The position numbers are program-made. From Myxococcota bacterium (lineage in GTDB: Bacteria; Myxococcota_A; UBA9160; UBA6930), in assembly GCA_965223415.1 (NCBI GenBank), contig OZ245002.1:4032001-4096000 (forward strand): 64,000 nt of DNA. Direction: 5' to 3'. Below, piece after piece: positions 21,801 through 27,800 of this stretch; the stretch's first letter is position 1; every line of letters starts with the position of its first letter.

Positions 21801-24800
21801 GCCGCTCGCGGACCGGCAAGAGCCTGGCGCCGCGCATGGGCATGCTCAACTGGAACATCCAGGCCTTCCTCGACAGCGGCCGCAAGGACCTGATCTTCGT
21901 TCCCGTCGGCATCACCTACGAGCGCATCGTCGAAGAGGGCGCGATGGTCGACGAGCTGGAGGGGGGCCGGAAGCAGGAGGAGAGCGTGCTCGGCCTGATG
22001 CGCGCTCGGAAGGTGCTGCAGCGGCGCTTCGGCAGCGTCTTCGTCCGCTTCGGTGAGGCGCTCTCCCTGGCGAAGGCGCTGGAGGGGCACGAGGCGCTCT
22101 TCGCCGCCTCCGACGACGACGAGGCGGCGGTCGCCCAGCGACGCGACTTCACCGAGCGCCTCGCCAACGATCTCGTCGAGCGCATCAACTGGTCGATCGT
22201 GGCCAACGCCACCTCCGTGGCCGCTTGCGCGCTCCTGGGGGAGCCGCGGCGGGGGCTCTTCCGCCACGAGCTGGTGCGCCGCATGGCCGAAGTGGTGGAG
22301 CTGCTGAACCTCCAGGACGTCCGTCTCACGCCCGCCTTCGAGGCCGATCAGCCCGATTTCGCGGAGTCGGTCGGCTTCCTGCTGCGCAGCGGCCTGATCA
22401 AGTCCGAGGAGGATCCCCGCGGCGAGATCCTCTACTTCGAGGACGGGCACCGGCGCGCCCTCGACGTCTACCGCAACACGCTCTTCCACTTCCTCGTCGC
22501 GCCCAGTCTGATCGCCCGCCAGGTCCTGCGTGGCGGCACGCGGGAAGATCTCGACGGCGAGCTCGGCTTCTGGCTCGATCTGCTCTACCGCGAGTTCTTC
22601 GCGCCCAAGGGCCTGGTGCAGAACGTGCACTGCGACGCCTTCCTCGACTACTTCGAGCGCATCGGCGTGCTCGAGCGGCAGGGCGATCGCCTGCTCGCTA
22701 CGGAGAAGGGGCAATCCTACTTCGGCTTCCTCGCCGAGCAGACCCGCAGCCTGCTCGAGGCCTATCATGCGGCGCTCGCGGTGATGGCCGCTGTCGACGA
22801 GCCGCGCACGGCCAAGCAGCTCGAGAAAGAGGCCGAGGAGCAGTTCCGGCGCGCCCATCTGATCGGCGAGGTGCATCGCACCGAGGGATGGAACCCGGTG
22901 ACCTTCCGCAACGCCCTCGATCTGCTGGTCCGGCGCGGCATCGTGGAGCGCCAGGCCGCTGAAGGACGCGGCGAAGCACGCTTCGCGCCCGGCGAAGCCC
23001 GTGGAGACCTCCCGGTGCTGCTCGGCCGGCTGGCGGGGGCCCTGGGCTCCGGGTAGTCTCGCCGCCCTCATGACGGCCCGGAACCCGCTGGATTTCGCCA
23101 AGCGAGGCGGACTCGTGACGGCCATCGCCCAGGATCACGCGACCGGTGAGATCCTGATGGTGGCTTACATGAACGAGGAGTCCTTCGCGAAGACCCTCGA
23201 GCTGGGCGAGGTGGTGTATTGGAGCACCTCGCGGAACGAGCTCTGGCACAAGGGCGAGAGCAGCGGGAACGTGCAGGTCGTGAAGGAGCTGCGCGTCGAC
23301 TGCGACGGCGACGCGGTGCTCCTCAAGGTGGAGCAGAAGGGCGACGCCGCCTGCCACACCGGCAAGCGCAGCTGCTTCTTCAACCTGCGCCGGGACGACA
23401 GCTGGGTGGACGACGGCCGGCAGGTCTTCGATCCCGACGAGGTCTATGGCAAGTGAACGCCGCTCGGAAGCGCATCCTGCGCCTGGGGCTGCCGAAGGGC
23501 AGCCTCCAGGACACGACGGCCCGGCTCTTCGAGCTGGCGGGCTACAACATCCGCTTCCCGTCCCGCTCCTACTACCCCGAGATCGACGATCCGGAGATCG
23601 AGTGCATCCTGATCCGGGCCCAGGAGATGGCGCGCTACGTCGAGCAGGGCGTGCTCGATGCCGGCATCACCGGTATCGACTGGGTCCAGGAGAACGGGGC
23701 CAAGGTCAAGGAGCTGGCCGACCTGAAGGCCCCGTGGCCGAACTACCGGACGGTGCGCTGGCTGCTGGCGGTGAAGGAAGGCTCGAGGTTCAAGTCCGTG
23801 GAGGACCTGCAGGGGAAGCGGATCGCCACCGAGGCGGTGGGGCTCACGCGCCGCTACCTGAAGCAGCACGGGGTGAAGGCCGAGATCGAGTTCTCCTACG
23901 GGGCTACCGAGGTGAAGCCGCCGGTGCTCGCCGACGCGATCGTAGACGTCTCCGAGACGGGCTCGAGCATCCGGGCGAACAACCTGCGCGTGCTCGACAC
24001 GGTGCTCGAGAGCACGCCCCGCTTCATCGCCAACAAGGATTCGGTCAAGGACGCCTTCAAGAAACGGAAGCTCGAGCGCATGCTGCTGATGCTGAACGGC
24101 GCCATCGCCGCGGCCGGGCGCGTCGGCCTCAAGCTGAACGTCCGCCGCAAGCACTTGGACGCGGTGCTTGCCGTGCTGCCCGCGCTCGGCACGCCCACGA
24201 TCTCGGCCCTGGCCGACGACGAATGGGTCGCCCTCGAGACGATCGTCTACGAGACCGTCGTGCGGGATTTGCTCCCGGAGCTGGTCGAGCTCGGGGCCGA
24301 GGGCATCGTCGAGTATCCGATCAACAAGATCGTCGCCTGAGCAGGTGGGGCGCTTCGTCCGGCTCGCCCGGATCGTCCCCGACTACGGGCGCACGGCGCT
24401 TCGGGGGTGGCTCGGCCATCGGGCTCCCGGCCGCGGTCCGCATCGCGTGGCCCAGGCCGTGGTGGTCGGCGAGGAGGGCGTGCTGCTCACCGTGCGTGCC
24501 GAGCTCCGGGGCTGGGAGCTGCCCGGCGGCGTCGTCGACCCCGGTGAGCTGTCAACGGAGACGGTCGTGCGCGAGGTGCGCGAGGAGACGGGGATCGACG
24601 TCGAGATCGAGTGGGAAGTGGGAACCTGGACGCGGACGGGCTTCCTGCCCCATCGGGTCACCGTGTTCCGCTGCCGGCCCGTTTCCGGCACGCCGACTCC
24701 GAGCGCCGAGACGCCGCGGGTGGCCTGGTGGGATCCGCAGGCGCTACCGACCGCGACGCTCTTCCCCTGGTACTGGGAGCCCCTGGCGGCTGGGCTCTCC

Positions 24801-27800
24801 GGCGAGGCCGATCCGGTCGAGCGCACCGAGCATCAGGGGCTCCGCGCCATCGCCGCGGGGATGGCGATCGACCTTCGGATGAGATGGAGCGACGATCGCA
24901 CCGGCGGAGGCGCCCGATGACCGACGGTGGCTGGTCCGACTCGGCCGAGGCATGGATCGCCCGCATGGGCGAAGAGGGCGATGCGGGCCGCCGCGAGCTG
25001 ATCGATCCGGTCGTGCTGGCCCGCGTGCAGGCGGGCGGCTTCGAGAACGCGCTCGACGTCGGATGCGGTGAGGGGCGGACCTGCCGGGCTCTGAAGGCCC
25101 GGGGCGTCGCCGCGGTGGGGATCGATCCCACCGAGCGTCTGATCGAATGTCCGAGGGACCGGGATCCCGGGGCCACTACCGTCTGGCCCGCGCGGAGCGC
25201 CTGCCCTTCGACGACGCCTCCTTCGACCTCGTCCTGAGCTGCGTGTCGCTGGTCGACATTCCGGACTTCCGGGCCGCCATTTCGGAGATGAGCCGGGTGC
25301 TCGCCCCCGGCGGCGCACTCCTCGTCGCCAACCTGACCTCCCTCCAGTCGGCGGGCATGCGAGGCGGCTGGCAGCGCGGCGCGGCGGGCCGCCCCCTGCA
25401 CTTCGCCGTCGACGACTACGGCAGCGAGTGGGCGGAATGGGTCGAATGGGCCGGCATCCGTGTGGAGAACTGGCACCGGCCGCTCAGCGCCTACATGAAG
25501 GCCTACCTCGACTGCGGATTGAGGCTGGCCTTCTTCGACGAACCCTTGGCACCGCCCGCTTTCGCCAGCGAGGCCGACACGAACGTACGGGCGCCCTGGT
25601 TCAACGCGATGGAGTGGCGCAAGCCGGAGCCGGGCGACGGCGCGGCGTCCGGGCCGTGCGGGGGGACGGAGGCGGAAGCGCGGTGCCGCGCGCCGTTCCG
25701 GCGCCCGGGGTACCGTCCCACCCATGACGACTCCCGACGAGCTCGCCGGCTACGACCCGATGGCTCCGCAGTTCCAGCAGGATCCCATCCCGTACTACCG
25801 GATCCTGCGCGAGAAGGCCCCGGTCTTCCGTCACCCCGCCACCGGGATCTTCTTCGTTTCCCGCCACGACGCCGTGAGCGCGGTGCTGGCGGACCCGGCG
25901 ACCTTCTCGTCCCGCTTCGGCGGCGACCCGCGTACCCAGGCGCCCTCCTCCCTGCGCACGCGGCTCGAGGCGGTGTTCGCCGAGGGCTGGCCGATGATCT
26001 CGACCATGCTCATGGAGGATCCGCCCCTCCAGACGCGCTACCGCAAGACGATCGGCCGCGCCTTCTCGAGCAGGAGGATCCTCGCCTGGGAGGGGGCCAT
26101 CCGGGAGATGACCGCCGAGATCCTCGACGCCTGGCCGGAGCGGGGCCGGGTCGACGTCATGCAGAGCCTCGCGATCCCGCTGCCGATCCGGGTGATCGGT
26201 CACGCGCTCGCGATGAAGCCGGAGGTTCTCCCGCAGGTGAAGGGCTGGTCCGACGCCTCGGTTGCGGGGCTCGGGGCGGCGGTCTCCGACGACGAGCGCG
26301 TCGACGCCGCCCGGAGCGTCGTCGAGATGCAGAAGTACTGGGCCGGCGAGTTCGACACGCGGCGCAAGGAGCCGCGAGACGACGTCATCACGGGTCTCGT
26401 CCAGGAGATCTTCGAGGACGCGGACGGCACCGAGCGTCCGCTCGAGACGGTCGAGCTCCTGAGCACGGTCCAGCAGCTCATGGTGGCCGGCAACGAGACG
26501 ACGACGAAGGTGATCAACGAGAGCTTCCGGCTGTTCGCCGAGCGCCCGGACGTGTGGGAGCGCATGGGCCGGGAGCCGGGGGTGATCCCGAACGTCGTCG
26601 AGGAGGTGCTGCGCCTCACGTCGCCGAACCAGGGCCTGTTCCGGGTGGTCACGGCGGACACGGAGATCCTGGCCACGAAGATCCCCGCCGGCTCGATGCT
26701 CTGGGTGATGTTCGGAGCGGCCAATCGGGACGAGCGCGTCTTCCCGGATCCGGATCGCCTGGAACCGGATCGGCCGAATCTCCGCGAGCACCTGGCCTTC
26801 GGCAAGGGCGCGCACTTCTGCATCGGGGCACCGCTGGCCCGCCTCGAGCTCCGGGTCGTGGTCGAGGAGCTCGTGCGCCGGGTCCGCCGGTTCACGATCC
26901 CCGAGGACTTCGAGCTGGTCTACGAGCCGAGCTACATCCTGCGCGGGCTGGCGGCCATGGAGATCGAGCTGGGCTAGGGCGTCGGTCGCGGGCGGCCGGC
27001 TCGCCCGCACGCCCAACGAAAACCGCCCTCCCGGGAACGCCGATTCCGGAAGGGCGGTCGCTTCTCAACCCAGAGGCTGGATCGAACCTAGGCGCTGGTC
27101 TCCCGCAGCCCGCTCTGCTCGAGCTCCTTGCCGAGCTGCTGGACCTTGCGCTTGAACTCGTCGAAGGGGTCGTCGAAGGAGAGGATGATCTCGGTGGTGC
27201 GCGGGATCTCGTCCCCGTTGAGCAGGCCTCGGTAGCGGTTGAGGTTGGCGAGGATGGCCTCGGCCACCTTGAGGGCGCGCTTCTCGGTCTTGATCAGCGG
27301 CGACTGGAGCGTGTAGACGTTGTTGCGTCCCCAGAGGCTCTCGTCGCGGACGATCGCGATCTCGCGGTAGACGCTGTTGATCGGATCGAAGTTGTACTCG
27401 ACCCGGACCTCCTTGAAGATGTCCGAGTTGCCGGTGTAGAAGCCACGCTCCTTCTCCACCTTGCCGAGCTGCCGGCAGCGTGGGCAGTAGAAGGTATCGC
27501 CGTGGTTGAGGAGGAAGACGCCCTTCGCGTAGTCCTCGCAGTCGGTGTTCTCGCAGTAACCGACTCCACGCTTCATGCTTGCCATGGGATGATCGCCTCC
27601 GGCTCTCGCTAGGTGGCGCGAGCTCCGTTCGAGCCTTTCAAGAGGCAAGCCCCGTGCCATGCGGCTCTGGGGGGAGCACCGCGGCGCGATGTTCGAGCGT
27701 CTTTCTGCTGTTGGGAGTGTAGCTGCCCATTCGCTGCGGGTGCCGCGCTGCACACGAGCTGCAGCCGTTGGCACCCCGTTCGACTCAAACGGGGAAGCGG

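What a model noticed while it worked through the whole genome (the two positions that open the first line are those of the whole stretch)
23070..24920. A Nudix hydrolase in the hisI-hisG operon stands in for the missing HisE
The histidine pathway lacks phosphoribosyl-ATP pyrophosphohydrolase (HisE), and HisI is monofunctional. A conserved Nudix hydrolase (g03790) is encoded 4 bp after hisG in a hisI-hisG-Nudix unit across the order and is the likely non-orthologous replacement.
Evidence so far: PF01503: no match here; a clear HisE in only 2 of 16 other class genomes, both beside a second, foreign-looking hisG; controls 14 of 14. The three-gene unit is in 12 of 12 native hisG loci of the order, ours included, with an intact Nudix box; HisG-Nudix are neighbours in at least 140 of 192 order genomes against 654 of 131,979 overall. 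G007 lacks both hisG and the Nudix gene. Paper searches 179 and 181 found no such replacement.
(Added by a program. Inside this text positions count along the whole contig: contig position 4,032,001 is position 1 of the stretch shown here. "Call 12" and the like, gene names such as g00115 and contig names such as C1 are that model's own, and its searches are not shown. The text may have been shortened before it was handed on; [...] marks where a part breaks off. The agent that wrote the report below was given it as the finding of a first reader that could run no searches.)

Follow-up and report, generated by a model that had tools for sequence, protein, structure and literature searches.

The report
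Nudix enzyme beside histidine genes
In one bacterial order whose members mostly lack the usual enzyme for the second step of making histidine, a conserved nucleotide-cutting (Nudix) enzyme sits right behind the first histidine gene and may do the missing job, but some relatives keep the pathway without it, so the idea is plausible and untested.

Summary
Observation confirmed. hisI (monofunctional), hisG and a Nudix gene with an intact Nudix box lie 4 bp apart in this one-contig genome. It has no HisE and no MazG (the published HisE stand-in), but has the other his genes sought. The Nudix gene follows native hisG in 157 of 160 order loci (median gap 25 bp in 114 measured), while MazG is patchy (82 of 121 genomes). 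The chemistry (NTP to NMP + PPi) fits, with FolQ as precedent.

The functional reading is only partly supported. The link arose once. plsB, unrelated to histidine, is also a conserved neighbour (107 of 119). Two small genomes and 9 of 30 sister-order genomes keep his genes without HisE, full MazG or this Nudix. All 22 HisE-bearing order genomes keep the Nudix, with no faster evolution. Same-subfamily Nudix genes in other phyla are not near his genes (0 of 58 loci). No fusion was found.

Verdict: P about 0.4 that it is the main PR-ATP pyrophosphohydrolase. If so, it is a new variant of a known kind, testable by E. coli complementation. The scan's notes held no earlier report of it.

The parts
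20393..23056 (+). plsB, glycerol-3-phosphate acyltransferase (start uncertain); ends 13 bp before hisI, probably the same transcript; serves as the passenger-gene control
   Evidence: PF19277 E 6e-64 and PF01553; gene model; within 1.1 kb upstream of hisG in 73 of 78 and 34 of 41 order loci and 18 of 19 sister-order loci
23070..23456 (+). hisI, monofunctional phosphoribosyl-AMP cyclohydrolase, 128 aa, no HisE domain
   Evidence: PF01502 E 8e-36 only; NF000768 over cut-off, bifunctional NF002747 under cut-off
23453..24340 (+). hisG, long-form ATP phosphoribosyltransferase, 295 aa, GTG start overlapping the hisI stop
   Evidence: PF01634 + PF08029; TIGR00070 and TIGR03455 over cut-off
24345..24920 (+). 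Nudix hydrolase, 191 aa, candidate PR-ATP pyrophosphohydrolase; MutT-like core with extra N- and C-terminal helices
   Evidence: PF00293 E 2e-16; no NCBIfam family over cut-off; AlphaFold model pLDDT 92.7; Nudix fold, best Z 18.7, rmsd 1.9 over 134 residues, to 3cng
24528..24596 (+). Nudix box, residues G62-I84
   Evidence: read from the translation; pattern intact in 75 of 77 order orthologs; R76, E77, E80, E81, G83 invariant in 77 of 77
24917..25725 (+). SAM methyltransferase split over two frames; sits in the variable slot after the Nudix gene; not part of the conserved unit
   Evidence: Methyltransf_11 hits on both pieces; public contigs of runs X1-X3 match across it with no gaps (one study, may include the source sample)
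27088..27576 (-). highly conserved 162-aa hypothetical protein with a Cys-rich N-terminus, convergent on the hisG unit in both orders; marks the far end of the locus
   Evidence: gene model; seen downstream in most loci; no Pfam family over cut-off; Atlas clusters 'hypothetical', Myxococcota

Best explanation
The Nudix protein was recruited once, in the ancestor of this order, into the slot behind hisG and is the main PR-ATP pyrophosphohydrolase. HisG makes PR-ATP; the Nudix box (metal-binding E77/E80/E81) would hydrolyse the alpha-beta bond to give PR-AMP + PPi; HisI then opens the ring. A weaker backup (MazG where present, or promiscuous house-cleaning enzymes such as RdgB or other Nudix proteins) would let a few lineages lose it. 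Shown: gene order, pathway hole, intact catalytic motif, fold, core-gene-like retention. Inferred: co-transcription, substrate, product, physiological role.
For: No HisE, MazG or MazG-like match in a one-contig 97% genome that has the other his genes sought. Nudix directly after native hisG in 157 of 160 loci, median gap 25 bp in the 114 measured. It tracks hisG more tightly than plsB (107 of 119) or hisI (108 of 122) do, and stayed with hisG where plsB was not found within the fetched flank (G008, G016). Ortholog in 115 of 121 genomes against full MazG in 82 of 121; 34 of 37 genomes lacking HisE and full MazG have it. Near-invariant basic or polar residues outside the box (Q37, R51, R97, H103, R180) would suit a multi-phosphate substrate (inference). 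Precedent: the Nudix FolQ removes PPi from dihydroneopterin triphosphate and was found by operon context (PMC1971073, passages). The step is known to be replaceable (PMC5764234 passages; PMC13759103 passages).
Against: One origin, so the counts are not independent. G089 (87% complete) has the gene cleanly absent from the locus and G032 (91%) lacks it; neither has HisE or MazG, yet both keep hisI, G, D, B, A, F, C. Sister order: 0 of 30 orthologs, and 9 of 30 lack HisE, full MazG and the Nudix while 30 of 30 keep hisI; about 3 misses are expected from incompleteness. All 22 HisE-bearing order genomes keep it. G036 has HisE, lost native hisG, and kept an intact Nudix. No faster evolution with HisE: Nudix/HisG 2.72 vs 2.74-3.04, Nudix/PlsB 1.04 vs 1.39; this is weak, because the duplicated HisG is not relaxed either. 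Out-of-order subfamily members: 0 of 58 loci with a his gene in the flank; 8 of 10 of their genomes have a strong PF01503 match. No HisI- or HisG-Nudix fusion among 76 longer HisI relatives or 2 longer Nudix relatives (weak).
Confidence: 0.4

Rival explanations
1. Passenger: the Nudix is a housekeeping enzyme with an unrelated substrate (oxidised nucleotides, RNA 5' ends, a cofactor intermediate or a lipid-linked diphosphate). It was fixed in the insertion-prone slot behind hisG in a mixed plsB-hisI-hisG operon. The HisE step is done class-wide by an unidentified or promiscuous pyrophosphatase, with MazG contributing where present.
For: The slot after hisG holds many different genes in the sister order. 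plsB is a conserved non-His neighbour. The fraction lacking HisE and full MazG is the same with the Nudix (37 of 121, 31%) and without it (9 of 30, 30%). The gene is kept with HisE and lost without it. Class-wide candidates exist: RdgB in 5 of 5 tested; two Nudix groups, one CoA-pyrophosphatase-like and one ADP-ribose-pyrophosphatase-like (labels recalled from motifs), shared by most genomes lacking all three. The gap occurs in 19 of 208 prototrophs (PMC13759103), which an order-restricted gene cannot explain in general.
Against: Needs a chance landing of a chemically apt enzyme directly behind hisG in a HisE-less lineage, then 98% linkage and 95% retention. No alternative candidate was found near hisI, hisC, the hisD cluster or hisG in either order.
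Confidence: 0.4
2. His-linked damage control rather than the main step: the Nudix clears side products or inhibitors of the HisG/HisI reactions (PR-ADP to PR-AMP + Pi, overflow PR-ATP, PRPP or dinucleoside polyphosphates). It is useful with or without HisE, and dispensable in streamlined genomes.
For: Explains both the tight link to hisG and the retention without relaxation in 22 of 22 HisE-bearing genomes. PR-ADP inhibits HisE-type hydrolysis, IC50 52 uM, and is not a HisIE substrate (PMC10242683, passages). Some Nudix enzymes are reported to hydrolyse PRPP (title of a reference listed in PMC5389931). That HisG can use ADP is recalled, not from a call.
Against: Leaves the HisE hole unexplained in this genome. 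There is no structural or biochemical evidence for substrate choice.
Confidence: 0.15
3. The organism has an undetected, highly diverged HisE/MazG-fold enzyme, or is a histidine auxotroph with a decaying pathway.
For: Genome completeness is 97.3%, not 100%; profile searches use a loose first filter.
Against: One contig; three Pfam models and two locally built profiles found nothing. The his genes have open frames with no internal stops and are conserved across the order.
Confidence: 0.05

Closest known systems
HisE / HisIE phosphoribosyl-ATP pyrophosphohydrolase (PF01503, EC 3.6.1.31)
   Same: The proposed reaction (PR-ATP to PR-AMP + PPi) and the position beside hisG/hisI.
   Different: HisE is an all-alpha NTP pyrophosphatase; this protein has the Nudix alpha/beta fold and no PF01503 match. 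Activity untested.
MazG-family PR-ATP diphosphatase DVU1186 of Desulfovibrio vulgaris (PMC5764234, passages read)
   Same: Replacement of HisE by a house-cleaning-type NTP pyrophosphatase; the mutant is a histidine auxotroph.
   Different: MazG is distantly related to HisE; a Nudix would be an unrelated fold. MazG is absent from this genome and patchy in the class.
FolQ/NudB dihydroneopterin triphosphate pyrophosphatase (PMC1971073, passages read)
   Same: A Nudix enzyme with narrow distribution doing a biosynthetic NTP to NMP + PPi step, found from operon context where a gene was missing.
   Different: Folate pathway; confirmed biochemically. This protein scores 21 bits on the NudB model, cut-off 103, so it is not a member.
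MutT-like Nudix hydrolases (3cng, 2yyh, Ndx1 1vc8, MutT2 5zrc, MTH1)
   Same: Core fold and Nudix box; Z 14-19, rmsd about 2-2.7.
   Different: 21-29% identity, many tied matches with different substrates; the listed matches mostly leave the terminal helices (residues 4-24, 166-181) unaligned, so no substrate can be transferred.

Membership tests
Nudix hydrolase superfamily (PF00293) | Nudix box GX5EX7REUXEEXGU | tested here: met
   G62-I84 canonical; intact in 75 of 77 orthologs
Nudix hydrolase superfamily (PF00293) | alpha/beta/alpha Nudix fold | tested here: met
   model pLDDT 92.7; the best-ranked structure matches are Nudix-fold proteins
HisE (PF01503) | match to the PRA-PH profile / all-alpha NTP-pyrophosphatase fold | tested here: not met
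   no PF01503 hit on the protein; Nudix fold
PR-ATP pyrophosphohydrolase (EC 3.6.1.31), any fold | hydrolyses PR-ATP to PR-AMP + PPi | not testable with these tools
   needs an enzyme assay or complementation
Non-orthologous displacement of HisE | canonical gene missing while the rest of the pathway is intact | tested here: met
Non-orthologous displacement of HisE | clusters with pathway genes | tested here: met
   157 of 160 loci, but one origin, and 0 of 58 out-of-order loci
Non-orthologous displacement of HisE | complementary distribution (lost where HisE is present, kept where HisE is absent) | tested here: not met
   22 of 22 HisE-bearing genomes keep it; the three with intact native hisG and no Nudix (G032, G033, G089) lack HisE; the sister order lacks it, and 24 of 30 of its genomes lack a clear HisE
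Non-orthologous displacement of HisE | fusion to a his gene in some genomes | tested here: inconclusive
   none among 76 longer HisI relatives or 2 longer Nudix relatives; the tool calls such blanks weak
Named Nudix families (MutT, RppH, YtkD, NudB, NudC, NudE, NudI) | score above the NCBIfam cut-off | tested here: not met
   all 22 listed families are below cut-off, e.g. mutT 31.6 vs 97.9

The most novel reading that the evidence does not exclude
This is a Nudix-fold phosphoribosyl-ATP pyrophosphohydrolase: a third, structurally unrelated solution (after HisE and MazG) to step 2 of histidine synthesis, recruited once in this order. The sister order and the streamlined genomes that lack all three would point to yet another unidentified route.
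Probability: 0.4. Interest if true: 0.65.

Novelty: new variant of a known kind. Interest (0 to 1): 0.45.

Why it matters
PR-ATP pyrophosphatase is one of four steps that make up 65% of the remaining gaps in amino-acid biosynthesis annotation. It is missing in 19 of 208 genomes of prototrophs, and the authors speculate that other pyrophosphatases replace it (PMC13759103, passages). A Nudix enzyme doing it would be the first such case I could find in the searched library, and would show the step can be taken over by an unrelated fold. It is a cheap test (one complementation). Its reach is limited: the subfamily is largely confined to this order plus scattered Chloroflexota and Entotheonella-type genomes, so it would not close the general gap.

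Tried and rejected
MazG as the explanation for this genome: rejected, none found. MazG as the essential stand-in across the class: not supported, since it is absent in about 30% of genomes of both orders and sits in variable, non-his contexts in 22 loci viewed.

A different conserved candidate next to hisI, hisC, the hisD-B-H-A-F cluster or sister-order hisG: none seen. The conserved 162-aa convergent gene as the substitute: no support; no Pfam family, and the single-sequence model was too poor to search (pLDDT 43). HisI fusions to unknown domains: extensions looked like over-called starts or unrelated fusions.

Homodimer prediction: no verdict, not used as evidence. RNA: no RNA holder listed. 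Promoter/terminator scan uninformative: 0 promoters, 1 terminator vs 2.3 expected. G131's PF01503 hit was dropped from the HisE count because it is a 176-aa protein in a phage-like context. PF01503 hits with E above 1e-8 were treated as MazG cross-hits, and two weak PF03819 hits (G063, G100) were dropped from the MazG count. The plsB counts used an out-of-frame query and were discarded and redone. Alignment A1 held two out-of-frame rows and was replaced by A2. The first local HMM run timed out and was redone.

Paper searches that found no Nudix HisE replacement: (listings), with passages read in PMC5389931, PMC4921024, PMC5764234, PMC13759103 ('nudix' 0 times in main text and 0 in 6 supplements), PMC10242683 and PMC1971073. 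Most subscription journals and bioRxiv supplements are not covered. Earlier scan notes: nothing relevant.
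Full report
What is there. The window carries plsB (ends 23056), hisI (23070-23456), hisG (23453-24340) and a Nudix gene (24345-24920) on the + strand, with gaps of 13, -4 and 4 bp. HisI is 128 aa and matches only PF01502; the bifunctional HisIE model stays under its cut-off. HisG is the long form with its C-terminal domain. The Nudix protein has a canonical box (G62-I84) and a confident Nudix fold with extra terminal helices (pLDDT 92.7). Its structural matches are tied at 21-29% identity among enzymes of many substrates, and no named Nudix family reaches its cut-off. The Atlas and one source name place close relatives in Myxococcota.

The pathway hole is real. The genome is one contig, 97.3% complete. 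PF01503 finds nothing at E<=10, with controls 14 of 14. MazG, the published HisE stand-in in Desulfovibrio (PMC5764234, passages), is also not found, nor with profiles built from relatives' HisE and MazG over six frames. hisD, hisB, hisA, hisF and hisC are present, and hisH sits in the same cluster by sequence. The histidinol phosphatase was not sought.

Conservation in the order. In a sample of 121 genomes (at least 80% complete), the Nudix ortholog was found in 115. It lies downstream of native hisG in 114 of 117 loci where the hisG 3' end was seen, median gap 25 bp. A search of all 193 order genomes found native hisG in 182. I fetched the 44 additional loci whose coordinates were listed (36 matches were not listed): 43 of 43 with enough flank had the Nudix. 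The total is 157 of 160. hisI precedes hisG in 108 of 122 loci; G077 and G114 use a different, stand-alone hisI subtype and still keep hisG-Nudix. Full MazG was found in 82 of 121 and a clear HisE in 22 of 121. In 10 of 12 HisE loci fetched, HisE sits beside a second hisG of about 30% identity. Of 37 genomes lacking both HisE and full MazG, 34 have the Nudix. This core-gene-like retention of a chemically apt enzyme right behind hisG is the main support. FolQ is a precedent for a narrowly distributed biosynthetic Nudix found by context (PMC1971073, passages).

Controls that weaken it. (1) One origin: the sister order has plsB-hisG with neither hisI nor Nudix in the 20 loci viewed, and varied genes in the slot after hisG; the profile finds 0 of 30 orthologs there. 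(2) Gene-order inertia: plsB ends within 1.1 kb upstream of hisG in 107 of 119 order loci and 18 of 19 sister loci. The Nudix link (98%) is tighter than this (90%), but not different in kind. (3) The sister order keeps hisI in 30 of 30 and hisC in 7 of 7 tested, yet 9 of 30 lack a clear HisE, full MazG and the Nudix, against about 3 expected from incompleteness. G121 has only a small MazG-like gene. The share lacking HisE and MazG is the same in both orders (31% vs 30%), so having the Nudix does not predict MazG loss. (4) Losses: in G089 and G033 hisG is followed directly by the far-end conserved gene, and G032 has no ortholog (its contig ends 226 bp after hisG). G032 and G089 (2.2-2.4 Mb, 91% and 87% complete, one genus) also lack HisE and MazG yet keep hisI, G, D, B, A, F, C; G033 has MazG. 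(5) All 22 HisE-bearing genomes keep the Nudix, and G036 deleted native hisG but kept the Nudix intact. Terminal-branch ratios show no relaxation: Nudix/HisG 2.72 (2.15-3.40, n=15) with HisE vs 3.04 and 2.74 without; Nudix/PlsB 1.04 vs 1.39. This test is weak because the duplicated HisG is not relaxed either (0.39 vs 0.45). (6) The same subfamily occurs in Chloroflexota and Entotheonella-type genomes. None of 58 loci had a his gene in the flank (many flanks are short and about six hits are probably other Nudix types). 8 of 10 such genomes have a PF01503 match at E<=1e-16, two confirmed inside his clusters. (7) No fusion to HisI or HisG was seen (weak evidence).

How it most likely works. Best reading (0.4): HisG makes PR-ATP, the Nudix removes PPi to give PR-AMP, HisI opens the ring, and promiscuous backups explain the exceptions. 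Near-invariant Q37, R51, R97, H103 and R180 outside the box could bind the extra ribose-phosphate; this is inference, no docking was done. About as likely (0.4): a housekeeping passenger in a conserved mixed operon, with a class-wide enzyme doing the step. RdgB (5 of 5) and two widespread Nudix groups are available but untested. Third (0.15): His-linked damage control, for example removal of PR-ADP, which inhibits HisE-type hydrolysis (PMC10242683, passages). This fits both the linkage and the retention beside HisE. The odds are my judgement, not a computed value.

Relation to what is known. It is a Nudix hydrolase (tested, met) and not a HisE or MazG homolog (tested). As a non-orthologous displacement it meets the pathway-hole and clustering criteria and fails the complementary-distribution criterion. 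Replacement of HisE is already known for MazG (PMC5764234), and the step is an acknowledged open gap: 19 of 208 prototrophs lack it (PMC13759103, passages and section 13 read). Searches found no report of a Nudix in this role; the library omits most subscription journals, and bioRxiv supplements were closed.

Verdict. New variant of a known kind if true (P about 0.4, interest 0.65). Overall interest 0.45: a clean, cheap test of a recognised gap, but limited to one order and with real counter-examples.

Noticed in passing
window 27088-27576 (-): A 162-aa hypothetical protein with a Cys-rich N-terminus is nearly invariant at its start across both orders and stays convergent on the hisG unit, downstream of ccmA-B-C. 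No Pfam family; Atlas clusters are unnamed.
   Followed up: partly
L162-L183: The sister order uses a distinct stand-alone HisI subtype (about 134 aa, PF01502 score about 80 vs 120 bits), often between a carboxyltransferase-like gene and a small cytochrome c gene (labels by eye). G077 and G114 of this order have it in place of the operon hisI.
   Followed up: partly
L031-L042, L148-L153: A foreign-looking hisE-hisG pair (hisG about 30% identical to native) occurs in 22 of 121 order and 6 of 30 sister genomes. In G036 native hisG is deleted; in G124, G144 and G147 only the foreign hisG was found.
   Followed up: partly
window 24917-25725: SAM methyltransferase gene split by a frameshift; public contigs of one study agree with the window, so it is probably a real pseudogene.
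   Followed up: partly
L056:3132-3564 (G086): The Nudix ortholog is split over two frames; assembly error or pseudogene. This 80%-complete genome has no HisE or MazG match.
   Followed up: no
L103:1127-2284 (G000:C1 about 1898100-1899300): A 385-aa PurH-like protein matching only the C-terminal part of PF01808 (profile 78-310) lies near the his cluster; it may lack the IMP cyclohydrolase part.
   Followed up: no
L103:8050-8688 (G000:C1 about 1905050-1905690): A 212-aa lipoprotein-like gene with no Pfam match sits between hisH and hisA in G000, G032, G033 and G089 but not G009.
   Followed up: no
window 17146-18285 (+): Transposase-like ORF, apparently IS630-type (label recalled, not searched), upstream of the locus.
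   Followed up: no
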